Assembly (NCBI GenBank): GCA_958413985.1
Contig: CATYVZ010000008.1
Span: 5,842 to 69,841, forward strand
Direction: 5' to 3'
DNA from: an uncultured Bacilli bacterium
GTDB lineage: Bacteria; Bacillota_I; Bacilli_A; RF39; UBA660
DNA: 64,000 nucleotides
The translations under genes were made by a program, and so were the position numbers. The notes beneath the pieces were generated by a model. It did no database searches. It worked only from the letters and a program-made list of their open reading frames with translations, and had not been told where the DNA came from. Below, in pieces: positions 13,118 to 36,183 of this stretch (position 1 is its first letter; every line of letters begins with the position of its first letter).

Positions 13118-14074
13118 ATGGAGGAAATTAAAATGAAAAAAAATGAAATGAAAAAAGGATTAACATTAATAGAATTTTTATTTGGGATCATCATTTTGGC
13201 TGTTATCGGTTTAGGTGGTTATATAATATATGATAAGGTTATCAAAGAACAACCTAATGTTGAAGAACCTGCTAATCCAGATGATCAACAACAAACGGAG
13301 AAACCTACTGAACCAGAAACACCTGATAAAGTAGAAGCAATAAGTTTAAATGATAAGATAGTTACAGACTTACTAGACAAATATAATTTAGAAGGTTCTG
13401 CAACAGATGAGTTTTATACGAACAAAAATATAACTGAAGATTATATACCTAATGATTTTATTCTTGGATTAACTGGAGGATTTTTTGTTTATTTTCAAGA
13501 AGAAGTTGATACAAGCAACACATGTGATGCTGAATTTAGTATTAAAGAGGAAGCTTTTGATGACATTGTAGAATACTTATTTAGTGATATAAATTATAAA
13601 CATGGGTCATTTACCCCGTTTATTAACTTTACAAATGATTTTGTTTTTGGAGAAGGTTCGTATTATCTATACAGTGATGTTGTTACATACGGTTCCGGCG
13701 AATATAGGTTTTGCGTAAATGCTTCTGACAATCCTTATAGTAATAATATTTTTGATGGTTTTATTTATCAAATTCCATATAAAGCCGAAATGATTAATGA
13801 TGGTGAGAAAATAAATATTTATTTCAAAACAATTTTTGCAAAAGTAGTTTATCTTAATGATTCTTTGTATTACGAATATTATCGTGATTATAATAAAACC
13901 AAATATATAGGTGATTGGTTTAATATGAACTTGGATGCTCTTTCATCATCTGAGATAGATCAGCTTGATAGTTATGTTTATAGTTTTGAAAAAAGAAGTG
14001 ATGTTTCAGACTATATAGCTGAAAAACAAAGCGATGGATCATATTATTTAAGTGGCTTTAAAAAAGCTGATTAA
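13118..14074 (+). CDS. prepilin-type (class III signal) pilin-like protein, 318 aa
   Basis: N-terminus KKGLTLIEFLFGIIILAVIG is a perfect match to the prepilin peptidase cleavage/methylation motif (K-G-[FL]-T-L-[IL]-E), followed by a hydrophobic helix and a ~280 aa globular domain. Confidence 0.6.
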   Translation: MEEIKMKKNEMKKGLTLIEFLFGIIILAVIGLGGYIIYDKVIKEQPNVEEPANPDDQQQTEKPTEPETPDKVEAISLNDKIVTDLLDKYNLEGSATDEFYTNKNITEDYIPNDFILGLTGGFFVYFQEEVDTSNTCDAEFSIKEEAFDDIVEYLFSDINYKHGSFTPFINFTNDFVFGEGSYYLYSDVVTYGSGEYRFCVNASDNPYSNNIFDGFIYQIPYKAEMINDGEKINIYFKTIFAKVVYLNDSLYYEYYRDYNKTKYIGDWFNMNLDALSSSEIDQLDSYVYSFEKRSDVSDYIAEKQSDGSYYLSGFKKAD

Positions 14075-14301
14075 AATTCGATAAATTAATAAATCATTTA
14101 GAATAAAACTTATCATGAAATATACTAAAATGTCCAAATTAGCGATATTTAATGTTAAGATAGACATAATAAGAGGATCAAAAAGAATAAAATAAGTATT
14201 CTTTTTGATTTTTTAATTTTACGAAAAATATTTCAATAGTTAATAATTTCAGTTTGGTATTGTAAAAATACCAATAATAAGGTATAATTTATTTATAATA
14301 A

Positions 14302-15912
14302 GTGGGTGGCAATATGATTCTAAGAAAACCTTATGCGTTTTTTATTAAACACTTTAAGCTAATTCACATAATATTAGCTGTTTTAGTATTTTATTCTATC
14401 TATAAAACAAAATTATTGTTAGACTTTTTTAACGAATATAGCTTAGCAACTATAAATGTTGCTGGTCAAGATTTAGTTACACCTTTATTACCCACCTTAT
14501 TTCAGATTATTCCCATTTTAATTATAATTTTTGCCACCATTGTTTTATTCGTCATGGCTTACAAAAAAAAACCATATCTTTTTTACATCATAACTATTAT
14601 CGTATATATATATGTTTTAATTATAACTCAAGTTTCTAAAGGAACCTTAAATACATTATATACGACATTAGTCGATGTTAGAACAATTCGATTAATTAGA
14701 GATTTAATTACGATAGCTTTTGCCACTCAGCTATTTAGTTTGATTATAATTTTAGTTAGAGCCACAGGTTTTGATGTTAAAAAATTCGATTTTAAAAGCG
14801 ATTTAAAAGAGTTAGAAATCAGTGAAGAAGATCGGGAAGAAGTTGAAGTTCAAATCAATTTTGACCCTAATAAAAAACTAAGAACTTTAAGAAAAAAAAT
14901 TCGTTATCTAAAATATAGCTATAAAGAAAACCGTTTGTTTTTCAATTCGATTTTTGTAGTAGCTGTCGTTTCATTAGTATTAGTTATAACTTTGTCGATT
15001 TTTAGTGGCGACAAAATTATTAAACAAAATGTTTATTTTTCTGGCAATAATTTTACAGTTAATCTAACTGATAGTTATTTAGTAAACACAGATTATAAAG
15101 GCAAACTAATCAATGAAGACTATTATTACCTTTTAGTAAAACTACAAATCAAAAATAATACTAATCGCATTTTTGGTTTAGATATTGCTACTACTAAAAT
15201 AATAATTGGGAATTATTCTTATGTTCCAACTACAAAAAACAAAAGCAGTTTCTTTGATTTTGGAACAATCTATCAAAATGAAAACATCGGTCAAGAATTT
15301 GAAACTAAAGTTTTGGTTTATGAAATACCTAAAGAATTAATTGACGAAGATATAATCTTTTCCTTTGTCGATAAAAATACAGTTGATAAAAACGGCAATT
15401 TTACTAGTACCAAAGTTAAAATTGAATACCAAGATTTAACTGGTATTACATCACTGGAAACAGCAAAATTACAAGAAGAACTATCATTTGAAAATAGTAT
15501 TTTAAAAGATTATAAAATTAATATAACTTCCTTTGATATTCAAAACAACTATAAACTTCAATATAATTTCTGCATTTCTAACGAATGTTACCCATCTTAC
15601 GAATATTTAAAACCTAGTATTACTAGCAATTATGATAAAGTACTGTTAAAAATAACCGGTTCCTTAACTAAACAAAATAGTATAGATAATATATATGATT
15701 TATACGACTTTATCGATTATTTTGGCAATTTATATTATGTGATCGATGGTGAAAGAAAAGTCCAATCAATTCAATTTAAAGAAGTAAAAAGTAAAAAAGT
15801 CAATCAAGAAAATACTTACTATATCGAGATTTTAAAAGAAGTCGAAAATGCATCTTCCATATCATTAGTATTTACAATTCGGAATAGAAATTATGAATAT
15901 GTTTTAAAATAG
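14302..15912 (+). CDS. membrane protein, about 5 N-terminal TM helices plus ~300 aa extracytoplasmic domain
   Basis: Likely true start at ATG 14314 (GGTGG RBS). Contains an in-frame A9 run (14562-14570, encoding KKK). No catalytic motif recognised. Confidence 0.45.
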   Translation: MGGNMILRKPYAFFIKHFKLIHIILAVLVFYSIYKTKLLLDFFNEYSLATINVAGQDLVTPLLPTLFQIIPILIIIFATIVLFVMAYKKKPYLFYIITIIVYIYVLIITQVSKGTLNTLYTTLVDVRTIRLIRDLITIAFATQLFSLIIILVRATGFDVKKFDFKSDLKELEISEEDREEVEVQINFDPNKKLRTLRKKIRYLKYSYKENRLFFNSIFVVAVVSLVLVITLSIFSGDKIIKQNVYFSGNNFTVNLTDSYLVNTDYKGKLINEDYYYLLVKLQIKNNTNRIFGLDIATTKIIIGNYSYVPTTKNKSSFFDFGTIYQNENIGQEFETKVLVYEIPKELIDEDIIFSFVDKNTVDKNGNFTSTKVKIEYQDLTGITSLETAKLQEELSFENSILKDYKINITSFDIQNNYKLQYNFCISNECYPSYEYLKPSITSNYDKVLLKITGSLTKQNSIDNIYDLYDFIDYFGNLYYVIDGERKVQSIQFKEVKSKKVNQENTYYIEILKEVENASSISLVFTIRNRNYEYVLK

Positions 15913-15963: not shown

Positions 15964-16614
15964 ATGAAGAAGATAATTACCATATTAGTCTTGATATTAC
16001 TTATTCCAACTGTAAAAGTAAAAGCATTGTCTTGTAGTTACAATGAATTAGCAAATTTAAAAAAATTAGCTTCCAATGTCAATATTAGTTACGATTATAT
16101 TGAACAAGGCAACAATGTGACTTTTACAGTAACCTTAAATAATCTTAATGAAAAAATTTATTTTGTCGACATGACAGATTATCGAACTTATAATTATGAA
16201 AACGATGAAATAACCATTTCTGGATACCGAAGTGGCGAAACCGTTAAATATGTGTTTTATGCAACTGATTCTAATTGTAGTAAGGAAGCTTTGTATACGA
16301 CAAGAGTTTCTTTTCCTAGTTACAATCCATACTATAAAGATGAAGTGTGCAAAGGAATCGAAAATTACAGTTTATGTCAAAAATGGTCTAGTCAACCATT
16401 ATCGTATGAAAACTTTTTAAAAAAAGTCAATGAATATAAAGAAGGACTTAATCAAGATGATAATGAAGAACCGACACCAACTGTAAACGAGGTATCTTGG
16501 ATTCAGTTGATAGTCAACTTTTTACTTGATTACTACATAATTATAGTCGTTATTTTAGCGTTAGGGTTGGTTGGTTTATATTTTCTTAGCAAAAAAGATG
16601 ACGTTTATAGTTAG
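15964..16614 (+). CDS. secreted, C-terminally membrane-anchored protein (216 aa)
   Basis: Signal peptide MKKIITILVLILLIPTVKVKALS. Several Cys in the mature domain. C-terminal TM helix followed by KKDD. Confidence 0.45.
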   Translation: MKKIITILVLILLIPTVKVKALSCSYNELANLKKLASNVNISYDYIEQGNNVTFTVTLNNLNEKIYFVDMTDYRTYNYENDEITISGYRSGETVKYVFYATDSNCSKEALYTTRVSFPSYNPYYKDEVCKGIENYSLCQKWSSQPLSYENFLKKVNEYKEGLNQDDNEEPTPTVNEVSWIQLIVNFLLDYYIIIVVILALGLVGLYFLSKKDDVYS

Positions 16615-16625: not shown

Positions 16626-17036
16626 GTGAAAGAATCATATTGGGGAGCTGCCGTAGTTGCTCTTGGAATATTGGCAATTTTCTTTATCTTCTTCTTTCAA
16701 TCAATCACCAATACCGACGAGCACAATTACCATTTGCTCAAAGAAGCTACTGAAGGAGCAATGTATGACGCCTTAGATTTGGCTGCTTATCGTGAAGATG
16801 GGGTGATTAGAATTGATCGCGAAAAATTTGTAGAAAACTTTTTAAGAAGATTTGCTGAAAGCGCTTTACTTTCTAACACTTATAAAATCGAGATATACGA
16901 TGTGAACGAAACACCACCTAAAGTTAGTTTGTTAGTTAGTAGTACTGAATCGACTAGTATGACAGGTGAAATTATGGAGTTTAGCATTCAAAATCGTTTA
17001 GATGCTATACTAGAGACACCTGATGTCGACGAATAA
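16626..17036 (+). CDS. small N-terminally anchored protein (136 aa)
   Basis: GTG start after an AGGAGG RBS. Single N-terminal TM (AAVVALGILAIFFIFFF) then an acidic soluble domain. Confidence 0.4.
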   Translation: MKESYWGAAVVALGILAIFFIFFFQSITNTDEHNYHLLKEATEGAMYDALDLAAYREDGVIRIDREKFVENFLRRFAESALLSNTYKIEIYDVNETPPKVSLLVSSTESTSMTGEIMEFSIQNRLDAILETPDVDE

Positions 17037-17054: not shown

Positions 17055-17885
17055 ATGAATAATTTTTTAGTATCATTAAAGAAATTTTTTACTAACAAGA
17101 ATACAGTTACTGTTATCGGCATTATTGCCATTTTAGGACTTTTATATTGGGGCTATACTTCAACTATAAATAGTCAAGTAAAACCGGTTAGGGTACCGGT
17201 AGCTTCTACGACCATTCAACCGAGAACTTTGATAACTGATGATATGATCAAGTGGATTGAGATGCCTGCTGCATCGATCAGTAATGACGTAGTTAGAAGT
17301 CAAACTTTGATCGTCGGTAAATATAGTGATGTCAACACTGTCATACCAGCTGGTAGCATGTTTTATGGCACAGTTTTAATCGACAAAACTGAGTTGCCAG
17401 ATTCAGCTTTTACAGCTGTTAAAGATGGTGAAAGACCTTATGCTTTATCAGTTACGACAGCATCTACTTATGGTAATTCCATTTATCCAGGAAATAAAAT
17501 CGATGTCTTCATGAAAGCTCTTGATGAAAATGGGCAAGTCATGGTAGGAAGATTATTAGCGCAAGTCGATGTACTAGCAGTTAAAGACAGTTCTGGAAAC
17601 AATGTTTTTGAGGACACTTCATCTAACAGAATCCCAGCAACTTTATTGTTCGGTGTTCCAGAAGATGTTTATATTTTATTGAAAAAAGCCGAGTATTTAA
17701 GTGGCTATGGAGTAGAACTTTTCCCAGTTCCTTATGGTGGAACAACGCCAGTTGAAGGCGATTTAGTTGTAGACCGTGAAGAATTAGTTAATTTCATCGA
17801 AAGTAATACAGTCGTTTTCAGTGACTCAACTGATAATCCTAACGATAATATTCCGGGTGGAGATATAGGAAACGAGACTGAGTAG
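17055..17885 (+). CDS. CpaB/RcpC-like pilus assembly protein (SAF domain)
   Basis: N-terminal TM. Then the PRTLITDDMIKWIEMPAASISNDVV region resembles the SAF domain of Flp pilus assembly protein CpaB. Sits immediately upstream of the secretion ATPase, as in tad loci. Confidence 0.5.
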   Translation: MNNFLVSLKKFFTNKNTVTVIGIIAILGLLYWGYTSTINSQVKPVRVPVASTTIQPRTLITDDMIKWIEMPAASISNDVVRSQTLIVGKYSDVNTVIPAGSMFYGTVLIDKTELPDSAFTAVKDGERPYALSVTTASTYGNSIYPGNKIDVFMKALDENGQVMVGRLLAQVDVLAVKDSSGNNVFEDTSSNRIPATLLFGVPEDVYILLKKAEYLSGYGVELFPVPYGGTTPVEGDLVVDREELVNFIESNTVVFSDSTDNPNDNIPGGDIGNETE

Positions 17886-17887
17886 TT

Positions 17888-19003
17888 ATGAATGATAATT
17901 TGTTTTCCCAAATAGATTTCGGACCACTAGTAGAATATTTAAGAAACGATGATATAACTGATATATCTTACAGTAATAACGGTCAAATTTGGCTAAAAAC
18001 TTTATCACATGGTATTTTTAGGATCGATAATCCTAATATTAATAATGCCTTTATGGAAAAATTAGCTTTTCAATGTTCTAATGTAATGGGTAGATCATTT
18101 AATGCAGCTCATCCATTTCTCGATTCTGAAAGCGCTGAGCTAAGAATGAATTTTATCCATGATTCGATTGCCAGCAATGGTATTGCTTGTGTTATAAGAA
18201 AGACACCAGCTAAGATAAGATTAGAAAAAGATAAGATTATTGCTGAAAAATATATTACTCTAGATATTCATGATTTTTTAGTTCAATGTGTTTTAGCGCA
18301 TTGTAATATTCTTGTTTGTGGCGAGACTGGTTCTGGGAAGACAGAATTTGTCAAATACTTAGCTTCTAAAACAAGAGAAAACGAAAAAATTATCACAATC
18401 GAAGATACATTAGAATTACACTTAGATAAAATATTTCCGCATCGTGATATTGTAGCGATGAAAACTAACAATGTCGCATCTTATACTGATGTATTAGTTA
18501 CTTGTATGCGACAAAATCCTAAGTGGATATTATTATCCGAGGTTCGTAGTGCAGAGGCAGTCATGGCTGTTCGTAACTCGATTTCTTCAGGACATTATAT
18601 TTTATCGACTATCCATGCTGATAAAGCTTCCTCTATTCCAACTCGTATGTATAGCTTGTTAGAAACAAGTCAAGATATCGATCAATTTTTAAAATCGATC
18701 CATCGATATGTTCAACTGGGCGTATTAGTTAGAGGACGCCAAGACCGTGAAACTAAGAGATTTATAAGAGAAATTGGCGAGGTTACAGAGTTTTATGTAA
18801 CCGAAGATAACGAAGCCAAATATAATATTATTTATCGTAAAACCCCGGAAGGAAAAGTATTCAGAAATAATCCGAGTAAGTATTTAATCGATTATATAGA
18901 AGGACAAGGAGTAAGTTTACCAGCAGGTTTTATTAATCCTGCTTTCGATCAGGAAAAAGAACTTATCTCACCTTCTCCTGTCACCCCAATTAACGAAATT
19001 TAA
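17888..19003 (+). CDS. CpaF/TadA/VirB11-family secretion ATPase
   Basis: Walker A ILVCGETGSGKTEF. Asp box IITIEDTLEL. His box region LSTIHAD. At 371 aa, typical of Tad/VirB11 hexameric ATPases. Confidence 0.8.
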   Translation: MNDNLFSQIDFGPLVEYLRNDDITDISYSNNGQIWLKTLSHGIFRIDNPNINNAFMEKLAFQCSNVMGRSFNAAHPFLDSESAELRMNFIHDSIASNGIACVIRKTPAKIRLEKDKIIAEKYITLDIHDFLVQCVLAHCNILVCGETGSGKTEFVKYLASKTRENEKIITIEDTLELHLDKIFPHRDIVAMKTNNVASYTDVLVTCMRQNPKWILLSEVRSAEAVMAVRNSISSGHYILSTIHADKASSIPTRMYSLLETSQDIDQFLKSIHRYVQLGVLVRGRQDRETKRFIREIGEVTEFYVTEDNEAKYNIIYRKTPEGKVFRNNPSKYLIDYIEGQGVSLPAGFINPAFDQEKELISPSPVTPINEI

Positions 19004-19918: not shown

Positions 19919-20700
19919 TGATTTTTGTATTAATAGGAATAATTTTGTTTTTTATCGTTATCTATAATAGATTTGTCGAACCTAATCAGTTTCTAAAAGA
20001 AACACAACCGATTTTTAAATTTTTACGAGAATCAGATTATGAATTTTTGTTAAAACTTAAATATGGTCCTGATGTCGATGTCGACAAAATGTTTGGCAAA
20101 AGAGTTCGCAATGGCTTGATTGCAATCGTTATTATGTTTTTTATATTTTTATCAAATTTACAATTTATCTATGTTTTATTTGCTATTATCGTCGGATTTG
20201 TTATTTTCAAACAACCTTATACGGCATTAAGGTCATATTACAAAAGAAACCTACACAACATCAATTTGATGTTACCGTATTATTTAAAAAGTTTAGAAAT
20301 TTTAGTCCAACATTATACTGTACCGGTAGCTTTGTCGCGTTCAATCGAACAAGCTCCCGAAATATTCAAACCAGGATTAAGAACATTAGTTGCTAGAATC
20401 GAAGCGGGCGATATGACGGTCGATCCTTACATGGAATTTGCCAAAGAATATCCTGTTCGTGATTCGATGAGAATGATGCGTCTTTTGTATCGTTTAAGCC
20501 TTGGTAGCCAAGAAAAAAAACAGGAACAATTAATGATGTTTTCACGAACTGTTTCTAGTTTGCAAAATAAATCTCGTGAACAGAAATATGCTGAAAGATT
20601 GGCTAACATGGAACAAAGAACGATGATTATGTTGTTTGTTACTGGTGGTGGTATCATGTTATTGATGTTATTATCGATGATGATGCTAATGAATTTTTAG
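19918..20700 (+). CDS. TadC-like (GspF-domain) inner membrane platform protein
   Basis: Same topology as the preceding ORF (260 aa). Its ATG overlaps the upstream stop (ATAATG). Confidence 0.5.
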   Translation: MIFVLIGIILFFIVIYNRFVEPNQFLKETQPIFKFLRESDYEFLLKLKYGPDVDVDKMFGKRVRNGLIAIVIMFFIFLSNLQFIYVLFAIIVGFVIFKQPYTALRSYYKRNLHNINLMLPYYLKSLEILVQHYTVPVALSRSIEQAPEIFKPGLRTLVARIEAGDMTVDPYMEFAKEYPVRDSMRMMRLLYRLSLGSQEKKQEQLMMFSRTVSSLQNKSREQKYAERLANMEQRTMIMLFVTGGGIMLLMLLSMMMLMNF

Positions 20701-29299: not shown

Positions 29300-31083
29300 T
29301 GGATATAAAAAGTCAAATAGCTCCTAAAGGGCTAGAATTTAGAACAAGTGATTTTGTTATAAGCGATAAATATGCTACTATCTTAACGGTCATATCTTAT
29401 CCTAAATTTATTTCGCCTGGATATTTAGCTAATTTAACTAGTATGTCTGGTGTTAAAGTAGTAATCAAACATATTCCTTTACCATTTAACGTTATTAGAA
29501 GAATGTTAAATAAAGAAATAGCTGATTTAAAAGCTCGTTATCAAGAAGAAAACGATAAAACAATTCAAGAAAGAATTAGACAAGATTATGAATCATTAGA
29601 GTTTTTCATTTCTCAGTTGGTTAGTACTCAATCAAAAATATTTGATTTTCAAATGCATGTGATGGTTACTGCTGATTCTGAAGAAGAATTATCAGCTAAA
29701 AAATTACAAGTTAAAAGTTATCTAGAAGCATTAGAAATGCGAGCATTCCCACTTAGATTTGAACAAGAAAAAGTTCTAAAATCTATACTTCCTATCTTTC
29801 CTAAACAACCGATCGAAGATCGGATTGGAACACCAATCCCAGCTCCGACGATTGCAGCGATGTTTCCTTTCATTTTTGACAGTATTAAAGATCCGGGATT
29901 ATCATGTCTATTAGGTGTAGATTTTTCCGGTGGTGTTATTTTATTTAATCAATTCTTATATCAAATAAAAAAAGAACACAATCGTAACAATGCTAATGTA
30001 ATTATTCTAGGAACATCAGGTTCTGGTAAATCGACAGCTGCAAAATTGTTGTTACGAACACATATTAGAAACGATATTCAAATTGTAGTTATCGACCCTG
30101 AAGGTGAACTAGAAGATATGGCTAGACTCTATGGTGGTGATTTTATCGATTTAGGTAAAGGTGGCGAATTTGGAATGGTTAATCCATTAGAAATTGTCAT
30201 GGATGCCGATGAGGATGAAATTAAACAAGGTCTAGGCTATACAGTTTTAACAAGAACATTACAAACTTTAAAAGCTTTTATCAAGTATTATGATCCTAGT
30301 ATCGAGGAAGATACGACTAATATGTTTAGTGAAATTGTCCAAGACACATATCGTCGTTTTGGAATAGATTTCACAACCGATTTTTCTAAGTTGAATTCTA
30401 ATGATTACCCAACTTTTAAAGATGTTTATGCAACAGTAAGAGGTAAGTTATTGTCTATCCCTGAAAAAACTCACGAAAAAGATATCTTAGAAAAATTAGA
30501 ATTAAAAATAAGACCATTAGTCAAAGAATTACGTTATTATTTTGATGGTCATACGACTATTCAACCACAAAGTAATTTTATCGTATTTAATATTAAAGAG
30601 TTAATGAATAGTGATAAAAACATAAGAAATGCATTGTTTTTCAACATATTAAAATATGCTTGGAGTCTAACTTTAAATCCCGACACCAACACAGTTTTGA
30701 CAGTTGACGAAGCTCATGTTTTGATCTCTGGTAGCAATGTTTTAGGAGCTGATTTCTTAGGACAGATCCAAAGACGTGCGCGTAAATATAACACAGGAAC
30801 TATCATTATAACTCAACAACCTTCAGATTTTAGTGATCCTTCTGTCATTACTCAGGGTAAAGCTATATTTGATAATGCTTCTTATTACTTAGTAATGGGA
30901 TTAAAAAAACAGGCAGTCGAGGATTTATCTAAATTAATCGATTTAAACGACAACGAAAAAGAAAGTATCAAACGATATAATCAAGGAGAAGCCTTGTTTG
31001 TCTGTGGTAGCCGTAGAATGCGAATAAATATTATTGCCACAGAACAAGAATTAGATTCTTTTGGAAGCGGTGGCGGATTATAA
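29299..31083 (+). CDS. VirB4-family conjugal transfer ATPase, ATPase domain (594 aa)
   Basis: Walker A ILGTSGSGKSTAA. VirB4 signature VVIDPEGELED. Walker B LTVDEAHVLI. C-terminal motif TQQPSDF. Confidence 0.85.
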   Translation: MDIKSQIAPKGLEFRTSDFVISDKYATILTVISYPKFISPGYLANLTSMSGVKVVIKHIPLPFNVIRRMLNKEIADLKARYQEENDKTIQERIRQDYESLEFFISQLVSTQSKIFDFQMHVMVTADSEEELSAKKLQVKSYLEALEMRAFPLRFEQEKVLKSILPIFPKQPIEDRIGTPIPAPTIAAMFPFIFDSIKDPGLSCLLGVDFSGGVILFNQFLYQIKKEHNRNNANVIILGTSGSGKSTAAKLLLRTHIRNDIQIVVIDPEGELEDMARLYGGDFIDLGKGGEFGMVNPLEIVMDADEDEIKQGLGYTVLTRTLQTLKAFIKYYDPSIEEDTTNMFSEIVQDTYRRFGIDFTTDFSKLNSNDYPTFKDVYATVRGKLLSIPEKTHEKDILEKLELKIRPLVKELRYYFDGHTTIQPQSNFIVFNIKELMNSDKNIRNALFFNILKYAWSLTLNPDTNTVLTVDEAHVLISGSNVLGADFLGQIQRRARKYNTGTIIITQQPSDFSDPSVITQGKAIFDNASYYLVMGLKKQAVEDLSKLIDLNDNEKESIKRYNQGEALFVCGSRRMRINIIATEQELDSFGSGGGL

Positions 31084-31103: not shown

Positions 31104-33386
31104 ATGCCTAACGAACAGAACAATGGTTACAACTCTAAAAACATCCAAAATAGTCAAAAAGAAAACAGTAAGATTCCTACACAAAGGAATTTTTCTGCAT
31201 TGCCAAAAAACAATAATCAAATTAACAAGGGATACAATCCTAATTTGGTGAACCATAAATACCGCCTTCGCCAAAATAATTTAACAAATAATGTTTTAAG
31301 AAAAAACAATTTAGTCGAACAAACTAAAATTAATCAAACAAGACAAGATAATCAGACAGTAGCTGATAATCAAAATTTAGAAGAAATTAACGAAAAAAAT
31401 TCGCCCAAAGAATCTATTAGTAATATATCTGATCAAATTTCAAATAAAGTTAACCCCTTAAAAAGATTTAATCCCTTTGGTTTATTTGGCAAAAAAAACA
31501 AAGTTGAAGCCGAAGGTAGTGGGGAATATGCTGTTAATTTAGGAAAAAAAGTAGTTTTATTTGGAACTGGAGCAACGTTTGGTTTAGGGGGCTGTTTTTC
31601 TTTCCTTGTCTTAGTTTGTGTTATAGCTATTATTATGGCACCTTTGTTCTTTGTTGCCGAATTAATTGACGACGTTGGTGATGGTCTTTCAAGCTTTGGT
31701 GAAAAATTAGGTAATTTTTTAACCTTTAGAGGTTGGTGTAGCGATGAAGAATGCCAAGAACAAGAGCAAGACAACTTTTATGAATCAATCAAAGAAGTTT
31801 ATGAAGACTATCGTTCAGATAAAAATGTCACTTTAAATACGTCATTATTAACTGCCACTCTTACTTATATAGATCCATATAATACGACCAACGAAGATGA
31901 CGACAATGAAAAAATTGAAGATTGGGAAGATATGGCTTCATCTAGTCTTATCGACTTTAAAAAGAGCGAAAAGAAAGTAACAGAACTAGCTAAAAAAATG
32001 GTTAAAAAAAATGATGATGGCATTTGGGAACTCGATCTAGACGGTTATCGTGAATATCTGGAAACAGATTTTATCCGTAAGTTTTATTATGACAATAAGG
32101 AAGGTAGTGCTGTCGATAATAAAGTCAAACAGACAGTTAATGAAATTTTTGCAAGAGCAGAAGCTTTTGAAGGATTAGAGCCTGAATTTGTTTATACCAA
32201 AACATATGCTTATTGCCCCGGAGTAACAGTTACTAGCCGTGATGGTACGGTTGAAGGTACTTATTCTCTTGAAGATTATATTGCGGGAGTTGTCAGTGCT
32301 GAAGCTATGGCTGGTTTAAATAAAGAAGCCTTAAAAGCGCAAGCCGTGGCTGCTCGAACTGCCACTTTAAAATTTACTAATAATTGTTCAAAACCGATTG
32401 AAAATAGTACCCGTAACCAAGTTTTCAGGTGGCCTGCTTCTGATTATGGTATCGAAGCAGCTGAAGCAACTAAAGGTCAAGTATTAATTTATGATGGAGC
32501 TATTTTTGATACAATGTATGACTCTTATTGCTATGATGACAAAGATTGTCAATATGGCGATGAGGATGGCCGTCACTACGTTATCTATACAAAATTACCT
32601 GGCAATGAAACACATAAGGTTTATTTGAGCCCAGAGTATTATAAATATGTCAATGGTGGTCATGGTTTTGGTATGAGTCAGGCTGTCTCTTATGAAATGG
32701 CCGATAATGGTGCAACTTATGAAGAAATACTAAAATTTTTCTATTCTGATGGTGCTTCTTTAGCCAACATGATTACCATCATAGGTGGTGAATACATTAG
32801 TAGTAGTTCTATTATTGCCGATAAAGATGAATTATCTAGACGTTCTGATTACTATAATCAAATCGGAACAATTAAAATTGGCGGTGAGTCGTTTAATTTA
32901 GGGACAATTTATTCTAAAAGTGCAGGTAATTTAGGTCAATGTGTTTGGTATGCTCAATCTCGAGCATTAGAATTAATATATAGCTCTAATATGGACGACT
33001 TCCAAAAAATTAAAGCTTTAAAAGCAATTAGCTCTACTTATCGTAATGGTGAAGGATGGTATGAAGCTTCTACTTTAGATATTTTTCCAAAGGAAAGCGA
33101 TTACACATTACCTGTTGCTGGCGCGATTGTTTCATGGACTAGTAGTACTAGCCTAGGCGCTAGTCATAATTACGGTCACGTTGCAATAATCGAAAGTGTC
33201 GATTATGAAAAACAAGAAGTAGTTATATCTGATGGTTGGAATAAATATGGTCCTCATGGTGAAGAAAGTTGGGAAAACGTTCAATATCGTACTAGAACTT
33301 TGTCTTTTGATAAGATATTAAATTATCAGACAGGTTATACTTTTAATGGTTATGTATATATTTTAGGGCAAGGTGAATCATTATGA
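31104..33386 (+). CDS. VirB1-like cell-wall hydrolase: Asn/Gln-rich N-terminal region, TM, SpoIID/LytB domain and C-terminal CHAP domain
   Basis: The SpoIID part shows YIAGVVSAEAMAGLNKEALKAQAVAARTATLKF and GMSQAVSYEMADNG. The CHAP part shows GQCVWYAQSRALE and NYGHVAIIESV (Cys/His). A single TM lies around residue 175. Confidence 0.8.
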   Translation: MPNEQNNGYNSKNIQNSQKENSKIPTQRNFSALPKNNNQINKGYNPNLVNHKYRLRQNNLTNNVLRKNNLVEQTKINQTRQDNQTVADNQNLEEINEKNSPKESISNISDQISNKVNPLKRFNPFGLFGKKNKVEAEGSGEYAVNLGKKVVLFGTGATFGLGGCFSFLVLVCVIAIIMAPLFFVAELIDDVGDGLSSFGEKLGNFLTFRGWCSDEECQEQEQDNFYESIKEVYEDYRSDKNVTLNTSLLTATLTYIDPYNTTNEDDDNEKIEDWEDMASSSLIDFKKSEKKVTELAKKMVKKNDDGIWELDLDGYREYLETDFIRKFYYDNKEGSAVDNKVKQTVNEIFARAEAFEGLEPEFVYTKTYAYCPGVTVTSRDGTVEGTYSLEDYIAGVVSAEAMAGLNKEALKAQAVAARTATLKFTNNCSKPIENSTRNQVFRWPASDYGIEAAEATKGQVLIYDGAIFDTMYDSYCYDDKDCQYGDEDGRHYVIYTKLPGNETHKVYLSPEYYKYVNGGHGFGMSQAVSYEMADNGATYEEILKFFYSDGASLANMITIIGGEYISSSSIIADKDELSRRSDYYNQIGTIKIGGESFNLGTIYSKSAGNLGQCVWYAQSRALELIYSSNMDDFQKIKALKAISSTYRNGEGWYEASTLDIFPKESDYTLPVAGAIVSWTSSTSLGASHNYGHVAIIESVDYEKQEVVISDGWNKYGPHGEESWENVQYRTRTLSFDKILNYQTGYTFNGYVYILGQGESL

Positions 33387-34054
33387 AAAAATTTATAGTA
33401 CTTATTTTAGTATTATTTCTAACCGGTTGTGACGTTACATATAAGTTGGAATTTATTGATGATGATTTAACAGAAACGATTTCTTTAACGATTCCAACTA
33501 GTGAAGAAAATAAAATTGAACAATTAAAAAATGCCAAGATCTATGCGATTAACAACAGCATTAGTCAACAACTATATAATGCAACTTATGATGAGGGACT
33601 ATTTAATTTTAATGCAAAATATGTTTATACATATAGTAAAGAAAGCTTTAGACATGCTCTTTATGCTACTGAGTGCTTTGATGCTTTTGGCTTTACTAGT
33701 CAAGATGATAATTATATTTTATCGACTAGTGAAGGATTTAAATGTATGTCTTTATATTACTATTTTGCCGATAATGTTAATATCGAAATTAAGACAAACC
33801 ATTTAGTTATTGAAAATAATGCTGACCAAGTTATCGATAATAAATATATTTGGAATATCAATAATGAAAACGCTGATACAAAAAAAATATATATTAAATT
33901 TGGTGAAGTTCAAACAAGAAGTTTTTTACAAAAAATAATTAATTTTATCAAAGAAAATAAAATTGCTGTAATTATCGGTGGATCTGTTGTCTTAATAGGT
34001 TCTACAATAGTTATTTATATCGTTATAGTTAGTAAAAAAAATAATGAAATTTAA
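33383..34054 (+). CDS. lipoprotein with C-terminal TM anchor (223 aa)
   Basis: Lipobox LTGC in MKKFIVLILVLFLTGCD. C-terminal hydrophobic helix. Its position between hydrolase and coupling protein suggests a T4SS accessory or VirB8-like role, but there is no motif support. Confidence 0.45.
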   Translation: MKKFIVLILVLFLTGCDVTYKLEFIDDDLTETISLTIPTSEENKIEQLKNAKIYAINNSISQQLYNATYDEGLFNFNAKYVYTYSKESFRHALYATECFDAFGFTSQDDNYILSTSEGFKCMSLYYYFADNVNIEIKTNHLVIENNADQVIDNKYIWNINNENADTKKIYIKFGEVQTRSFLQKIINFIKENKIAVIIGGSVVLIGSTIVIYIVIVSKKNNEI

Positions 34055-34062
34055 TCGATAAT

Positions 34063-36183
34063 GTGTTATACTGTTATGTAGTGAGTAATTATGAGGTGAA
34101 TAATATGAAACTAAAGTTTAAAGCAAGTGCAAAGGATTATTTAATTTTCGTTATTTTTGCCATATTTTTATTGTATTTTGTGGCAATCGCAGTACTTAAT
34201 TTGGCAAGTTTTGCTTCTGATGGTGTTTTTCACGGCTTAAATCCGATGCTAGCCTTTTCTAAAGAATATATAGTTCCCACTATCGTCGGTTATGTTTTTG
34301 CTTTAGTTTTTATCATAACTAGTGTTTCATCTTATTTCTTTGAACGTGATAAAGGTATTGGCATCAGTACTGGAACTAAAGAAGAAAAAGGTTATTCTAG
34401 ATGGGCTGATGAGAAAGAATTTAAAAAACAAAAAGATATTCATAAAATTTTACCTAATCAAGAAACAAGTGAATACGCTGGTATCCCGCTTATAAATAAT
34501 GGTAAAGAAATTTGGGTCGATTCTGGTGAGTACCACAATCTTATATTAGGTGCTACCGGTTCTGGTAAAACACAAACTATGGTTCAACCAATGGTGCGTA
34601 TTTTAGCTAAAAAAGGCGAGACCATGATCATTACCGATCCTAAAGGTGAAATTTACGAAAACAATGCCGAAATGTTAAAAGAAAAGGGTTATAATGTTGT
34701 TTTGTTAAACTTCCGTGATCCACAAAAAGGTAGTGCTTGGAATCCTTTAAGCTTACCATATGAACTTTATAAAAATGGTAATAAAGATAAAGCTAATGAG
34801 TTGTTAGACGACTTAGCGATGAATATTCTTTACGATGAAAAAGCTCAAAATCAAGATCCGTTCTGGGAAAAAACATCAGCTGATTATTTTACAGGTTTAG
34901 CATTAGCTTTATTTGAAGATGCAAAAGAAGAAGAAATAAACTTAAATACGATCAATTTAATGACGACAGTTGGCGAAGATAAACTTGGCAATACTACTTA
35001 TATAAAAGAATATTTTAATTATAAAGATAAAGCTAGTCCAGCTTACATTAATGTTTCTTCGACCATCATGGCACCTAGCGATACAAAAAGTAGTATTTTA
35101 TCCGTTTTTAAACAAAAAATAAAACTATTTTCTTCTAGAGAAAATTTATCTGAAATGTTAAGTCATAGCGATTTTGATTTAAAAGATATTGGAAGAAAGA
35201 AAACTGCTGTTTTCTTAGTTATTCAAGATGAGAAGAAAACTTATCATTCATTGGTTACTATTTTCATTAAACAATGTTATGAAACTTTAATCGACATCGC
35301 TCAAGAATCAGGTGGGAAATTACCTTTTAAAACCAACTTTATTTTGGATGAGTTTGCCAATATGCCACCTTTAAAAGATGTCACTACAATGGTTACTGCT
35401 GCACGAAGTAGAAATATTAGATTTACGTTTATAATCCAAAACTTTGCACAATTATATCAAGTTTATGGTAAAGAAAACGGCGAAACAATTAAAGGAAATT
35501 GTGGTAATATTGTCTATCTTATCAGTAGTGAATTAGCTTCCCTAGAAGAAATTAGTAAATTATGTGGCGAAGTTAAATCTAAAGAAAAAGATAAAACGGC
35601 AAGTACACCTTTGGTTACAGTTAGTGATTTACAAAGGTTACCAGAAAATACAATTATTGTTTTAAGAATTAGATCGATGCCATTTAAAACGCGAGTCGTT
35701 CCTGATTGGAAAATTCAGAAAGAAGGTAAATGGGGTAAATCTTATCCTAAAGCTTCTTATCCTGAAAGAGAAAAACAGGAAATCAAATTGTTTGATTTAA
35801 AGGCTTATGTCGATCAAAAAAGAGAAGCAAAATTAAATGATATGATATCTTCATTTGGCGCTTCTCCGGTTGTTCCAAAACAAGATAGAACTAGTAAAGA
35901 ACAACCAAAAATGGCGCCACCTATTAAAGAAGACAGTTTTGATATCGATGCTTTAGTCAAAAGAATAGATGCGAAGATAGCAGAATTAGAAGAACAAGAA
36001 AAATTAGAACAGTTGGCTAAAAGTCAAAATGTTGATCAACCACTTCCTTTTGAAAACAACGATTCTACTGTTTTGCAATCTACTGAACCAAAAATTGAAT
36101 TAAAAGAAGAAGAAGAAAAAGTAATCAATGGTGTGACTGACGATCAATTCTTTGATGATTTCTTTAATGATGAAGATGATTAA
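34063..36183 (+). CDS. VirD4/TraG/TcpA-type type IV coupling protein
   Basis: Two N-terminal TM helices. Walker A LILGATGSGKTQTMV. Walker B FILDEFANMPPL. At 706 aa, with an acidic C-terminal tail (DDFFNDEDD) typical of substrate-recruiting T4CPs. Confidence 0.8.
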   Translation: MLYCYVVSNYEVNNMKLKFKASAKDYLIFVIFAIFLLYFVAIAVLNLASFASDGVFHGLNPMLAFSKEYIVPTIVGYVFALVFIITSVSSYFFERDKGIGISTGTKEEKGYSRWADEKEFKKQKDIHKILPNQETSEYAGIPLINNGKEIWVDSGEYHNLILGATGSGKTQTMVQPMVRILAKKGETMIITDPKGEIYENNAEMLKEKGYNVVLLNFRDPQKGSAWNPLSLPYELYKNGNKDKANELLDDLAMNILYDEKAQNQDPFWEKTSADYFTGLALALFEDAKEEEINLNTINLMTTVGEDKLGNTTYIKEYFNYKDKASPAYINVSSTIMAPSDTKSSILSVFKQKIKLFSSRENLSEMLSHSDFDLKDIGRKKTAVFLVIQDEKKTYHSLVTIFIKQCYETLIDIAQESGGKLPFKTNFILDEFANMPPLKDVTTMVTAARSRNIRFTFIIQNFAQLYQVYGKENGETIKGNCGNIVYLISSELASLEEISKLCGEVKSKEKDKTASTPLVTVSDLQRLPENTIIVLRIRSMPFKTRVVPDWKIQKEGKWGKSYPKASYPEREKQEIKLFDLKAYVDQKREAKLNDMISSFGASPVVPKQDRTSKEQPKMAPPIKEDSFDIDALVKRIDAKIAELEEQEKLEQLAKSQNVDQPLPFENNDSTVLQSTEPKIELKEEEEKVINGVTDDQFFDDFFNDEDD

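What the first reader, a model, noticed from the sequence alone, without database searches (positions are those of the whole stretch)
13118..36183. Chromosomal 23-kb composite of a Tad-like pilus module and a relaxase-less VirB/VirD4 type-IV-secretion module
Module 1 (13118-20978) reads as a Tad/Flp-type pilus set. It holds a large protein with a textbook prepilin cleavage motif, two membrane or secreted proteins, CpaB-like, CpaF/TadA-like ATPase, TadB-like, TadC-like and a 74-aa pilin-like protein. Module 2 (23091-36183) holds two pseudopilin-like paralogs, a TadZ/CpaE-like protein, two VirB2/TrbC-like paralogs, VirB6-like and VirB3-like proteins, a split VirB4, a SpoIID+CHAP VirB1-like hydrolase, a lipoprotein and a VirD4 coupling protein. 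All genes lie on one strand. Only housekeeping ackA and one ORF sit between the modules. The flanks are core genes (pflA plus tRNAs on one side; rhodanese, rmuC and rnr on the other). I can find no integrase, relaxase or oriT-like nick site. No prepilin peptidase or secretin is present either. The mixture of T2SS-F-domain platform proteins with VirB4/VirB6/VirD4 in one co-oriented locus is not a standard ICE, Tad or ComG layout. It could be a chromosomal DNA-uptake or export machine, a protein-secretion T4SS, or a fossilised ICE.
Basis: partly seen in the sequence, partly recalled or inferred. Interest (0 to 1): 0.8.

Follow-up and report, generated by a model that had tools for sequence, protein, structure and literature searches.

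The report
Core chromosomal conjugation-type secretion machine
A 22-kb gene cluster that looks like the DNA-transfer machine of Gram-positive conjugative plasmids, pilus-building part included, sits without any relaxase in the chromosome of a group of uncultured, small-genome gut bacteria, where it is inherited vertically and conserved as strongly as housekeeping genes.

Summary
(1) The two "modules" are one cluster. In every other species examined, ackA plus one ORF are absent and the pilin gene abuts the next cluster gene. (2) The 318-aa "textbook prepilin" gene lies in a 1.4-kb lineage-specific insertion and is not part of the system. (3) The Tad-like plus VirB4/VirB6/VirD4 mixture is not unprecedented. 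The same parts, including the three-way VirB3/VirB4N/VirB4C split, DUF5411-SAF/CpaB, a CpaF/VirB11-like ATPase, two membrane proteins and DUF4320, form the transfer regions of Bacillus plasmids pBMB67 and pAW63/pXO2, of pLS20-type plasmids, and of Enterococcus, Paraclostridium and Mycoplasmatota plasmids. (4) The setting is new. The cluster is syntenic next to rhodanese-rmuC in at least 357 GTDB species representatives of RF39-like gut Mycoplasmatota. All ORFs are intact, VirB4 is 80-97% identical, and its divergence tracks rmuC. No relaxase or integrase was found in the window or in the 88 cross-species loci tested. It is therefore neither an ICE nor a fossil, but a domesticated conjugation-type T4SS. 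The closest concept is the relaxase-less chromosomal T4SS of Patescibacteria. Its substrate is unknown.

The parts
12813..14239 (+). NOT part of the conserved system. Lineage-specific insertion after tRNA-Val. It carries the 318/313-aa protein with a KG|LTLIE prepilin-type N-terminus (13118 or 13133 to 14074).
   Evidence: blastn against sister contigs L093 (86% nt identity) and L094 shows this stretch is missing there. No homolog lies upstream of the first cluster gene in other species. It is present only in same-species contigs. N_methyl motif is sub-threshold, and TIGR02532 scores 16.8 against a cut-off of 16.3.
14302..15912 (+). First conserved gene of the cluster. 536-aa polytopic membrane protein with a large extracytoplasmic domain. 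Family unknown.
   Evidence: Orthologs at 27-49% identity sit at the same position in other species. No Pfam, NCBIfam or PDB hit.
15964..16614 (+). 216-aa secreted protein with a signal peptide and a C-terminal TM anchor. Conserved. In other species a 700-1086-aa secreted protein follows it; that protein is absent here.
16626..17036 (+). DUF5411 protein. It always lies directly upstream of the CpaB/SAF gene, as on plasmids pBMB67 and Priestia.
   Evidence: Pfam DUF5411 176 bits. The pBMB67 134-aa neighbour of SAF hits DUF5411 at 9e-6. The Priestia plasmid carries an annotated DUF5411-SAF pair.
17055..17885 (+). CpaB/RcpC-like SAF-domain protein.
   Evidence: Pfam RcpC 33.2 bits (cut-off 28.8) and SAF. 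TIGR03177 CpaB 9e-14, below its cut-off. HMM against pBMB67 SAF 2e-34 and Priestia SAF 7e-38.
17888..19003 (+). CpaF/TadA/VirB11-family secretion ATPase with an invariant Walker A motif, GETGSGKT.
   Evidence: T2SSE 5e-28. VirB11, TadA and TrbB NCBIfam hits are all below cut-off. Best PDB hit is CpaF at 6e-17. Best plasmid hits are annotated 'CpaF/VirB11 family' in pLS20-like, Enterococcus and Priestia plasmids. Invariant columns.
19016..19918 (+). TadB-position polytopic membrane protein (300 aa). Probable divergent T2SSF-type platform protein.
19918..20700 (+). TadC-position polytopic membrane protein (260 aa).
   Evidence: HMM hits the Priestia 279-aa protein at 2.5e-17, pBMB67 244-aa at 6e-14, Paraclostridium 240-aa at 1e-8 and pLS20-type 245-aa at 4e-5. 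Each of these is the second membrane gene after the ATPase.
20754..20978 (+). 74-aa pilin-like protein. The N-terminus MKEAAG|EAN(M/L)TV plus a hydrophobic helix is invariant, and the C-terminal part is Cys-rich.
   Evidence: Ortholog N-termini. Only weak archaeal Pilin_N hits (7 members, best 0.004). No Flp or TadE hit.
21071..22981 (+). NOT part of the system. ackA (21071-22318) plus the 215-aa ORF (22334-22981), inserted inside the cluster in this species only.
   Evidence: Absent between the pilin and the next cluster gene in all other species. The gap there is about 25-130 bp.
23091..24046 (+). Two paralogous pseudopilin-like proteins (150 and 141 aa) with an M(K/R)E(A/S)IG leader and a hydrophobic helix. 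Related to DUF4320.
   Evidence: Paralogy 3e-24. Leaders. HMM against pBMB67 DUF4320 at 3e-4 and 4e-3, and against the Priestia DUF4320 protein at 2-3e-4. These are small-database E-values.
24046..25035 (+). TadZ/CpaE-like two-domain protein: an N-terminal receiver-like domain plus a ParA/MinD-type domain with a degenerate P-loop (KNVTxxxGATT).
   Evidence: AF2 pLDDT 80. Foldseek matches ParA, MinD and HypB at 2e-5 to 1e-3. 3fkq (Eubacterium rectale two-domain protein) is the one hit aligned over both domains, at 2.5e-4. HMM against the pBMB67 AAA_31 ATPase at 6e-4. No Pfam hit of its own.
25047..26370 (+). Two paralogous VirB2-like T4SS pilin candidates (298 aa with an extra C-terminal domain, and 117 aa). 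Each has a two-helix hairpin with a conserved KEDEIKK loop.
   Evidence: Paralogy 3e-28. 28 of 47 orthologs hit PF18895 T4SS_pilin (best 3.9e-5) and 3 hit T4SS_CagC. Weak hit to the Mbov_0395 pilin-like family. No similarity to pZB18 TrbC by hhalign.
26465..28441 (+). VirB6/TrbL-like polytopic channel protein with a long variable C-terminal extension.
   Evidence: TrbL_4 31 bits, cut-off 27. Mbov_0396 family 4.5e-7. HMM against zrk4 408-aa at 1e-6 and pLS20-type extended VirB6 at 4e-4.
28459..31083 (+). VirB3-like gene (28459-28776), VirB4 N-terminal domain (28745-29299) and VirB4 ATPase (29299-31083), present as three overlapping genes. This is a conserved split, not a pseudogene.
   Evidence: The three genes match consecutive segments of NF045975. 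The same geometry is found in all 80 species loci. The same split occurs in pBMB67 (PrgI 7e-6, 227 aa 7e-23, 630 aa 1e-89), pAW63 (CDS 11/10/9) and pLS20-type plasmids. Walker A GTSGSGKST is invariant.
31104..33386 (+). VirB1-type cell-wall hydrolase: TM helix plus SpoIID/LytB plus CHAP. Fast-evolving.
   Evidence: SpoIID 1.6e-15 and CHAP 1.9e-10. TIGR02669 86.5 bits, cut-off 83.3. Orthologs at 25-61% identity.
33383..34054 (+). 223-aa lipoprotein with a C-terminal TM anchor. It sits roughly where VirB8-like proteins sit in related systems. Family not established.
   Evidence: Lipobox LTGC in the sequence. Conserved at 25-58% identity. HMM against the zrk4 176-aa protein, which follows the gene after VirB4, at 6e-4.
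34063..36183 (+). VirD4-type coupling ATPase. The start called in metagenomes is 34105. Walker A GATGSGKT. Acidic C-terminal tail.
   Evidence: T4SS-DNA_transf 189 bits, TrwB_AAD_bind, TraG-D_C. HMM against pBMB67 VirD4 at 1e-85. Orthologs at 57-87% identity.
36188..36211 (.). Perfect 24-nt palindrome directly after the VirD4 stop. Likely the terminator that closes the cluster.

Best explanation
SHOWN. Positions 14302-36183, minus the ackA/ORF215 insertion, form one operon-like cluster. It is homologous, part by part, to the transfer regions of Gram-positive conjugative plasmids of the pBMB67/pAW63/pXO2 and pLS20 kinds. Those regions combine two sets of genes. The first is a T4SS core: VirB2-like pilins, VirB6, VirB3, a split VirB4, a wall hydrolase and VirD4. 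The second is a Tad-like sub-module: DUF5411, CpaB/SAF, a CpaF/VirB11-like ATPase, two platform-type membrane proteins, small pilin-like proteins and a TadZ/ParA-like protein. In this lineage (uncultured RF39-like gut Mycoplasmatota) the cluster has no relaxase or integrase in the regions examined. It sits at a fixed chromosomal place next to rhodanese-rmuC. It is intact in hundreds of species and diverges in step with housekeeping genes. It is therefore a vertically inherited, domesticated conjugation-type machine, not a mobile element.

INFERRED mechanism.
1. The hydrolase opens the wall.
2. VirB3, VirB4 and VirB6, and possibly the lipoprotein, form the membrane channel, powered by VirB4.
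3. VirD4 selects a cytoplasmic substrate and feeds it outward.
4. The CpaF-like ATPase, with the two platform proteins, CpaB and TadZ, assembles a surface filament from the 74-aa pilin and the two pseudopilins. VirB2-like pilins may also contribute. This filament makes or stabilises contact with another cell.

Most likely role: contact-dependent export of a macromolecule to neighbouring cells as a fixed part of the life style of these small-genome bacteria. This parallels the relaxase-less chromosomal T4SS of Patescibacteria. It is not the transfer of an element of its own. Whether the cargo is DNA or protein is not settled.
For: One cluster and vertical inheritance:
- Synteny holds in 80 of 80 species loci, and ackA/ORF215 are absent elsewhere.
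- 357 GTDB species representatives and more than 512 metagenome contigs carry close relatives.
- ORF lengths are constant.
- Median identities are VirB4C 83%, VirB4N 73%, TadB-like 73% and ATPase 78%, compared with rmuC 75%.
- VirB4C identity correlates with rmuC identity, rho 0.74, n=52.
- GC content is no different from the flanks.

Homology to plasmid tra regions. Literature: pAW63 CDS 9-11 and 19-23 (PMC1196294), pLS20 genes 36-54 (PMC8557374).

Intact ATPases: invariant Walker A motifs in VirB4C and in the CpaF-like ATPase across orthologs; the VirD4 motif is intact in the window.

No relaxase: no relaxase, Rep_trans or integrase profile hit in any cluster ORF. tblastn with the pBMB67 MobP3 relaxase and the pLS20-type Rel, Aux1, Aux2 and primase finds nothing at E<=1 in the window or in the 88 VirB4-centred loci L001-L088.

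Analogy: the Patescibacteria T4SS is chromosomal, monophyletic, mostly relaxase-less and MPF_FATA-derived, has VirB2-like pilins, and is essential for epibiotic growth in one species (PMC12102498, PMC12857230). RF39 is described as highly genome-reduced and auxotrophic (PMC12306168).
Against: - The function is inferred, not shown. There are no expression, imaging or genetic data.
- Whole RF39 genomes could not be scanned, so a relaxase, a prepilin peptidase or canonical com genes may be encoded elsewhere.
- Every characterised homolog of this machine moves DNA, which favours the conjugation rival.
- The T2SSF nature of the two membrane proteins and the pilin nature of the small proteins rest on weak or transitive evidence.
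- The 80 loci analysed were selected by VirB4 similarity, so the fraction of RF39 species that lack the cluster is unknown.
Confidence: 0.55

Rival explanations
1. It is an active chromosomal conjugation system. The machine still moves DNA, using a relaxase encoded elsewhere or an unconventional initiator. It mediates exchange of chromosomal DNA between RF39 cells, like an Hfr strain or mycoplasma chromosomal transfer.
For: All experimentally studied homologs are conjugative (pAW63, pBT9727, pLS20: PMC1196294, PMC9673590, PMC8557374). A conserved VirD4 with TraG-D_C and TrwB DNA-binding-type domains is present. By NCBIfam, the closest named VirB4 family is the Mycoplasma ICE ATPase, at 360 bits. 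The T4SS review lists VirB4/VirD4-dependent chromosomal transfer (MCT and DCT) (PMC12857230).
Against: No relaxase was found in the cluster, the 64-kb window or the 88 VirB4-centred loci. A machine kept at housekeeping-level conservation in hundreds of species is unusual for a purely sexual function. The Mollicutes ICE survey, which required a relaxase and an integrase, called few elements in uncultured Mollicutes MAGs: 12 in 83 genomes (PMC12205969).
Confidence: 0.25
2. It is a DNA-uptake machine, run in reverse like Helicobacter ComB or the archaeal Ced/Ted systems. It would supply nucleotides or genes to an auxotrophic cell.
For: The host is genome-reduced and said to lack many biosynthetic routes (PMC12306168). 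Both T4SS-derived importers and Tad pili have been linked to DNA uptake in other lineages (reference 73 in PMC11680825; the Ced and ComB cases are from my own knowledge). There is a weak CedD NCBIfam hit for VirB4C, 3.5e-11, far below its cut-off.
Against: A conserved VirD4 coupling protein is a hallmark of substrate export and is absent from ComB (my knowledge). No ComEA- or ComEC-like DNA receptor or channel is present in the cluster. In the Patescibacteria case, ComEC loss did not explain why the T4SS is essential (PMC12857230).
Confidence: 0.1
3. These are two independent systems that merely sit side by side: a Tad-type adhesive pilus and a separate minimal T4SS.
For: Tad-like loci without a T4SS exist in other reduced gut Firmicutes such as TANB77 (PMC11680825). 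The two halves have different closest Pfam families.
Against: The two halves are contiguous and co-oriented in every species. The same pairing recurs on unrelated plasmids of Bacillus, Enterococcus, Paraclostridium and Mycoplasmatota. The TadZ-like and pseudopilin genes lie on the T4SS side of the ackA insertion.
Confidence: 0.07
4. It is an ordinary or decaying integrative conjugative element.
For: A tRNA-Val gene lies near the left end. The conjugation-type gene content fits.
Against: No integrase, relaxase or att-type boundary was found. The only tRNA-adjacent insertion is the 1.4-kb prepilin-motif gene. The cluster keeps the same position and order in at least 80 species, with intact ORFs. 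Its divergence tracks housekeeping genes.
Confidence: 0.03

Closest known systems
Transfer (tra) regions of pXO2/pAW63/pBT9727 and pBMB67-type Bacillus cereus-group conjugative plasmids
   Same: Ten window proteins match pBMB67 proteins by sequence or profile: SAF/CpaB, the ATPase, the TadB-like and TadC-like proteins, the two DUF4320-type pseudopilins, PrgI/VirB3, VirB4N (227 aa), VirB4C and VirD4. The ParA-type ATPase matches weakly (6e-4). DUF5411 corresponds through shared Pfam hits and position. pAW63 has the same 105/223/645-aa VirB3/VirB4N/VirB4 trio and a VirB11 gene followed by 278- and 250-aa proteins (PMC1196294).
   Different: The plasmids carry a relaxase (MobP3 next to VirD4) and replication, partition and intron genes, and they are mobile. 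Here there is none of that. VirD4 is the last gene and the TadZ-like gene has moved behind the pseudopilins. Identities are only 20-33%.
pLS20-family conjugation operon (Bacillus subtilis group)
   Same: Same order: small protein, VirB11-like ATPase, two membrane proteins, DUF4320 and small ORFs, then VirD4, VirB6, VirB3-size, VirB4N-size, VirB4, VirB8 and VirB1. It is described as an 'expanded' T4SS of about 20 proteins with genes 36-45 of unknown function (PMC8557374).
   Different: pLS20 has Aux1/Aux2, a relaxase, a primase, quorum-sensing control, exclusion and adhesin genes. Similarity to the window is weaker than for pBMB67. No CpaB/SAF or ParA-like gene is annotated in the pLS20-type stretch.
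Chromosomal T4SS of Patescibacteria (CPR)
   Same: A chromosomal, lineage-wide, mostly relaxase-less T4SS of monoderm type in uncultured bacteria with reduced genomes. It has VirB1/3/4/6/8/D4-like parts and VirB2-like (PF18895/PF04956) pilin genes, and is proposed to have been co-opted from conjugation (PMC12102498, PMC12857230).
   Different: It is a different phylum. No Tad-like ATPase/platform/CpaB sub-module is reported as part of that locus. Whether the two VirB4 clades are related was not tested here. Essentiality has been shown only for the Patescibacteria case.
Mycoplasma ICE conjugation module (Mbov_0395/0396/0397 = CDS14-17 region)
   Same: By NCBIfam these are the best-scoring named families, and they occur in the same order: pilin-like (weak), TM protein 4.5e-7, and VirB4_plasma 2e-107 with the VirB3-like N-terminus.
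   Different: All scores are below the family cut-offs (360 against 590 bits). In mycoplasma ICEs VirB4 is one fused protein, and the elements carry a DDE recombinase and are mobile (PMC6030558). No Tad-like module is known there (my knowledge).
Tad/Flp (type IVc) pilus
   Same: A CpaF-family ATPase, CpaB/RcpC, a TadZ-like two-domain protein, two platform-size membrane proteins, a short pilin and two pseudopilin-like proteins that share a leader ending in Gly.
   Different: No Flp-type G/XXXXEY motif and no Flp or TadE profile hit. No TadV peptidase in the window. No secretin, as expected for a monoderm. The T2SSF fold is not demonstrated. The set is always tied to a T4SS.

Membership tests
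Gram-positive conjugative T4SS of the pXO2/pBMB67/pLS20 type | VirB4 ATPase, here with separate VirB3-like and N-domain genes | tested here: met
   NF045975 segments. PDB 4ag5 at 9e-55. HMM hits to the pBMB67 trio.
Gram-positive conjugative T4SS of the pXO2/pBMB67/pLS20 type | VirD4-type coupling protein | tested here: met
   PF02534 189 bits. 1e-85 against pBMB67 VirD4.
Gram-positive conjugative T4SS of the pXO2/pBMB67/pLS20 type | VirB6/TrbL channel protein and a wall hydrolase | tested here: met
   TrbL_4 above its cut-off. SpoIID+CHAP.
Gram-positive conjugative T4SS of the pXO2/pBMB67/pLS20 type | Accompanying VirB11/CpaF-like ATPase with two membrane proteins and DUF4320-type small proteins, plus DUF5411 and SAF in the pBMB67 and Priestia forms | tested here: met
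Gram-positive conjugative T4SS of the pXO2/pBMB67/pLS20 type | Relaxase (and oriT) linked to the T4SS | tested here: not met
   No relaxase-type profile hit in any cluster ORF. tblastn with the MobP3 and pLS20-type relaxases is negative in the window and the 88 VirB4-centred loci. Other MOB classes and whole genomes were not searched. oriT was not testable.
Gram-positive conjugative T4SS of the pXO2/pBMB67/pLS20 type | Carried on a plasmid or other mobile element | tested here: not met
   Fixed chromosomal position next to rhodanese-rmuC in 80 species loci. Core-gene flanks.
Tad/Flp type IVc pilus | CpaF/TadA ATPase | tested here: met
   T2SSE. CpaF is the best solved relative, although VirB11 and FlaI are nearly as close.
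Tad/Flp type IVc pilus | TadB and TadC platform proteins with a T2SSF domain | tested here: inconclusive
   No PF00482 hit in the window proteins or in distant relatives. hhalign is negative. There is a transitive link through the Priestia 'T2SS F family' protein. The low-confidence model gives only weak GspF-like matches.
Tad/Flp type IVc pilus | CpaB/RcpC | tested here: met
   PF16976 above its cut-off. TIGR03177 is below its cut-off.
Tad/Flp type IVc pilus | TadZ/CpaE: receiver-like domain plus ParA-like domain | tested here: met
   Fold only. AF2 pLDDT 80. ParA/MinD hits. 3fkq aligned over both domains. That 3fkq is TadZ is recalled from memory, not from the tool output.
Tad/Flp type IVc pilus | Flp pilin (PF04964, G/XXXXEY) and TadE/F pseudopilins | tested here: not met
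   No Flp or TadE hit among 52 orthologs. The leader MKEAAG|EAN differs from the Flp motif.
Tad/Flp type IVc pilus | Dedicated prepilin peptidase (TadV/FppA) | tested here: not met
   None among the ORFs of the 64-kb window that were scanned. The rest of the genome could not be searched.
Integrative conjugative element | Integrase or DDE recombinase, relaxase, att repeats, and variable presence | tested here: not met
Mycoplasma ICE T4SS (NCBIfam Mbov_0395/0396/0397) | Scores above the curated cut-offs of the three equivalog models | tested here: not met
   15.7 against 40, 29.7 against 70, and 360 against 590 bits.
Domesticated chromosomal T4SS (Patescibacteria type) | Chromosomal, lineage-wide, relaxase-less, with VirB2-like pilins | tested here: met
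   This is a likeness in kind, not shown common descent.
Domesticated chromosomal T4SS (Patescibacteria type) | VirB4 falls in the Patescibacteria clade, and the system is required for growth | not tested
   No reference sequences or experiments were available here.

The most novel reading that the evidence does not exclude
RF39-like gut Mycoplasmatota depend on this T4SS/Tad-like machine for an obligate contact-dependent life style: attachment to, and macromolecule exchange with, other gut bacteria or host cells. This would make them a second, independently evolved case of the Patescibacteria situation, within one of the most prevalent uncultured lineages of the human gut. The machine would then be the reason they resist pure culture and a handle for co-culture.
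Probability: 0.2. Interest if true: 0.85.

Novelty: new variant of a known kind. Interest (0 to 1): 0.62.

Why it matters
RF39-type bacteria are widespread and uncultured, and little is known of how they live. A 20-gene envelope machine occupies roughly 2% of a 1.2-Mb genome and is conserved as strongly as housekeeping genes. It is likely to be central to their biology.

The finding would be a second example, outside Patescibacteria, of a conjugation apparatus fixed in a chromosome and kept without a linked relaxase.

It also gives names (CpaB-like, TadB/TadC-like, TadZ-like, pilin-like) to 'unknown' genes of well-studied plasmids such as pLS20 and pAW63/pXO2. That suggests some Gram-positive conjugation systems build a Tad-like filament, which is testable in Bacillus.

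Tried and rejected
- Profile searches of the TadB-like, TadC-like and TadZ-like alignments against PDB sequences found nothing useful.
- hhalign of the shallow RF39 alignments against the zrk4 T2SSF proteins, and against each other, was negative. Neff was about 1.6, too shallow to be informative.
- The TadB-like model built from the permitted homologs was poor, with pLDDT 61. Its Foldseek search gave no significant match.
- The afdb50 library was not available.
- An exhaustive representative search showed the TadB-like family is tiny: 290 representatives, mostly fragments. Its distant full-length members have no Pfam hit.
- Pfam scans of the pilin and pseudopilin orthologs gave only weak Pilin_N and DUF4320 hits.
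- hhalign of the B2 family against a true TrbC pilin was negative.
- Promoter and terminator scans were at chance level in this AT-rich DNA, apart from the palindrome after VirD4.
- Three literature searches pairing RF39 with T4SS, pili, VirB4 or conjugation terms found no description of this locus.
- I considered that the split VirB4 is a frameshifted pseudogene. I rejected this because the split is identical in 80 species and in the plasmids.
- I considered that the prepilin-motif protein is the major pilin. I rejected this because it is a lineage-specific insertion.

Full report
**What is in the sequence.** The window has about 28% G+C and nearly all genes on the + strand. From 13118 to 36183 there are 25 co-oriented ORFs separated by small gaps or overlaps.

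Profile searches confirm these assignments:
- a DUF5411 protein
- a CpaB/RcpC SAF protein
- a T2SSE-family ATPase whose best solved relative is CpaF, with FlaI and VirB11 almost as close
- a TrbL_4/VirB6-like protein
- a SpoIID+CHAP hydrolase
- a VirD4 coupling protein
- a VirB4 encoded as three overlapping genes, which match consecutive segments 2-96, 97-276 and 295-891 of the NCBIfam model for the mycoplasma ICE VirB4. The C part matches solved VirB4 4ag5.

Two paralogous pairs are real. Seven of the ORFs had no family hit, or only a partial one.

**Whose genome.** The VirB4 C-part has thousands of close relatives. Sources name them 'Candidatus Faecisoma merdavium', 'Acholeplasma sp.', 'Bacilli bacterium' or 'Mollicutes bacterium'. 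NCBI files the named genera under Mycoplasmatota incertae sedis. From my own knowledge these MAGs correspond to the GTDB order RF39. RF39 is described as an uncultivated order with highly reduced genomes and many auxotrophies (PMC12306168).

**One cluster, inherited vertically.**
- A scan of one genome per GTDB species found 357 species encoding a close relative. The best 80 loci all show the same gene order.
- In every other species ackA and the 215-aa ORF are missing. The pilin gene is followed within about 25-130 bp by the first pseudopilin-like gene. The 'two modules' are therefore one cluster that was split in the window's lineage only.
- The three-gene VirB3/VirB4N/VirB4C arrangement has identical geometry everywhere, and ORF lengths are constant.
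- Downstream, rhodanese, rmuC and a DUF2238 gene, and often rnr, are conserved neighbours.
- Median identity to the window is 83% for VirB4C, 73% for VirB4N, 78% for the CpaF-like ATPase, 73% for the TadB-like protein and 68% for VirD4. rmuC is at 75%.
- VirB4C identity rises and falls with rmuC identity (Spearman 0.74, n=52).
- Walker A motifs of VirB4 and the CpaF-like ATPase are invariant across orthologs. That of VirD4 is intact in the window.
- This is the signature of a core, selected, vertically inherited system, not of an ICE or a relic.

**The left end.**
- A second scan, centred on the ATPase, recovered the upstream half in other species.
- The conserved cluster starts with the 536-aa membrane protein and then the 216-aa secreted protein. 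In most species a 700-1086-aa secreted protein follows, which is absent here. Then come DUF5411, CpaB and the ATPase.
- The 318-aa protein with the KG|LTLIE prepilin motif is not part of the cluster. Window 12813-14239 is missing from sister contigs with 86% and about 71-79% nucleotide identity.
- No homolog lies upstream of the cluster elsewhere. The gene was found only on same-species contigs.
- Upstream neighbours vary. In some species ScpA/ScpB are adjacent. In the window they lie 11 kb away, beyond a small TIR/DUF3800 island and pflBA.

**The layout is not unprecedented.** tblastn of VirB4C against plasmids gave two groups of best hits: a Mycoplasmatota plasmid, and about 68-kb Bacillus thuringiensis plasmids such as pBMB67.
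- pBMB67 carries, on one strand, MobP3 relaxase, VirD4, a small protein, TrbL, PrgI, a 227-aa protein and a 630-aa DUF87 protein.
- Further on it carries a surface protein, an 851-aa protein, a 134-aa protein, a SAF-domain protein, an AAA ATPase, a T2SS/T4P ATPase, a 305-aa protein, a 244-aa protein, an 89-aa protein and a DUF4320 protein.
- Profiles built from the RF39 orthologs hit these proteins one for one:

| RF39 protein | pBMB67 counterpart | E-value |
|---|---|---|
| CpaB-like | SAF-domain protein | 2e-34 |
| ATPase | T2SS/T4P ATPase | 2e-36 |
| TadB-like | 305 aa | 2e-11 |
| TadC-like | 244 aa | 6e-14 |
| pseudopilins | DUF4320 | 3e-4 and 4e-3 |
| TadZ-like | AAA_31 ATPase | 6e-4 |
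| VirB3-like | PrgI | 7e-6 |
| VirB4N | 227 aa | 7e-23 |
| VirB4C | 630 aa | 1e-89 (blastp) |
| VirD4 | VirD4 | 1e-85 |

- The 134-aa pBMB67 protein is DUF5411-like.
- The pAW63/pXO2 paper lists the same 105/223/645-aa trio and 'VirB11' followed by 278- and 250-aa proteins, all within a proven conjugative tra region (PMC1196294).
- A pLS20-family plasmid has the same order. Its authors list the genes around the VirB11-like ATPase as unknown and call the system an 'expanded' T4SS (PMC8557374).
- Priestia, Paraclostridium and Enterococcus plasmids repeat the pattern. The Priestia one is annotated DUF5411, SAF, CpaF/VirB11 and 'type II secretion system F family'. The Enterococcus one has a true TrbC/VirB2 pilin gene beside it.

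**The unnamed parts.**
- *TadB-like and TadC-like proteins.* The RF39 profile hits the Priestia 'T2SS F family' protein at 6e-14, and the next gene at 2.5e-17. The Priestia protein hits PF00482 just under threshold. The zrk4 plasmid protein at the TadC position hits it above threshold. Direct tests were negative or weak. I call them probable, divergent platform proteins.
- *TadZ-like protein.* The model is confident (pLDDT 80). It has a receiver-like domain plus a ParA/MinD-type domain. 3fkq, which I recall is TadZ of Eubacterium rectale, is the one structure aligned across both domains. The P-loop is degenerate.
- *VirB2-like pair.* The most consistent match is PF18895 T4SS_pilin, in 28 of 47 orthologs, below threshold.
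- *74-aa protein.* It has an invariant MKEAAG|EAN leader. The two pseudopilin-like proteins share an M(K/R)E(A/S)IG leader. This suggests processing by a prepilin-type peptidase that is not encoded in the window. No Flp or TadE profile is matched.

**What is missing.**
- No cluster ORF hits a relaxase, Rep_trans, integrase, DDE, A24 peptidase or secretin profile.
- The rest of the window is housekeeping apart from the small island.
- tblastn with the pBMB67 and pLS20-type relaxases, auxiliary proteins and primase finds nothing in the window or in the 88 VirB4-centred loci.
- Other MOB classes and whole genomes could not be searched. This is the main gap.

**How it probably works.**
- By homology, the hydrolase, VirB3/VirB4, VirB6 and possibly the lipoprotein form an envelope channel, and VirD4 feeds substrate into it.
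- The CpaF-like ATPase with its two membrane partners, CpaB and TadZ, would assemble a filament from the small pilin-like proteins and give cell contact.
- The machine is fixed, core and unlinked to any relaxase. I therefore favour a co-opted, contact-dependent export role that is part of the life style of these reduced bacteria. The parallel is the chromosomal, mostly relaxase-less T4SS of Patescibacteria, which is essential for epibiotic growth in one species (PMC12857230, PMC12102498).
- Chromosomal conjugation with a relaxase elsewhere is the main rival. DNA uptake is less likely because of the conserved VirD4.

**Novelty.**
- The machine type is known from plasmids, and the idea of a domesticated T4SS is known from Patescibacteria.
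- I found no description of this locus in RF39.
- A Mollicutes ICE survey that required a relaxase and an integrase would not have called it.
- I rate it a new variant of a known kind, of moderate to high interest.

Noticed in passing
window 2286-9000: A small variable island lies directly after tRNA-Leu(caa). It holds a ThsB-like TIR protein (2713-3306), a DUF3800 protein (4323-5054), a Bro-N fragment (5635-6069) and a 388-aa ORF. It is probably a defence or mobile islet. In other species ScpA/ScpB lie next to the cluster instead.
   Followed up: partly
window 12813-14239 (gene 13118/13133-14074): A lineage-specific 1.4-kb insertion after tRNA-Val encodes a 313-318-aa protein with a canonical type IV prepilin N-terminus (KG|LTLIE). 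Its origin and function are unknown. A run of eight or nine G lies upstream at about 12997-13005, which is unusual in 28% GC DNA.
   Followed up: partly
window 21071-22981: ackA and a 215-aa ORF with no family hit are inserted inside the cluster in this species only.
   Followed up: yes
L108, L113, L119, L135, L155 (about 5500-8750 in each): Other species carry a 700-1086-aa secreted protein between the 216-aa secreted protein and DUF5411. The window lacks it. This parallels the large surface proteins upstream of DUF5411/SAF on pBMB67, Priestia and pZB18.
   Followed up: no
L150 680-964; L165 841-1125: Some species have an extra copy of the 74-aa pilin family (MRQSVGEAN...) upstream of the first cluster gene.
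   Followed up: no
L091 10402-13927 (pLS20-family plasmid); L089 28260-34982 (pBMB67): Genes listed as 'unknown' in the pLS20 and pAW63 literature correspond to DUF5411-like, TadB-like, TadC-like and DUF4320 proteins. These well-studied conjugation systems therefore seem to contain an unrecognised Tad-like sub-module.
   Followed up: partly
window 36188-36211: A perfect 24-nt palindrome lies immediately after the VirD4 stop codon.
   Followed up: no
window 41712-42055 and 42638-43258 (-): A tmRNA gene (tag GNRNQLAFA) is followed by a Fic/DOC-family gene on the opposite strand. This region has locally lower GC skew.
   Followed up: no
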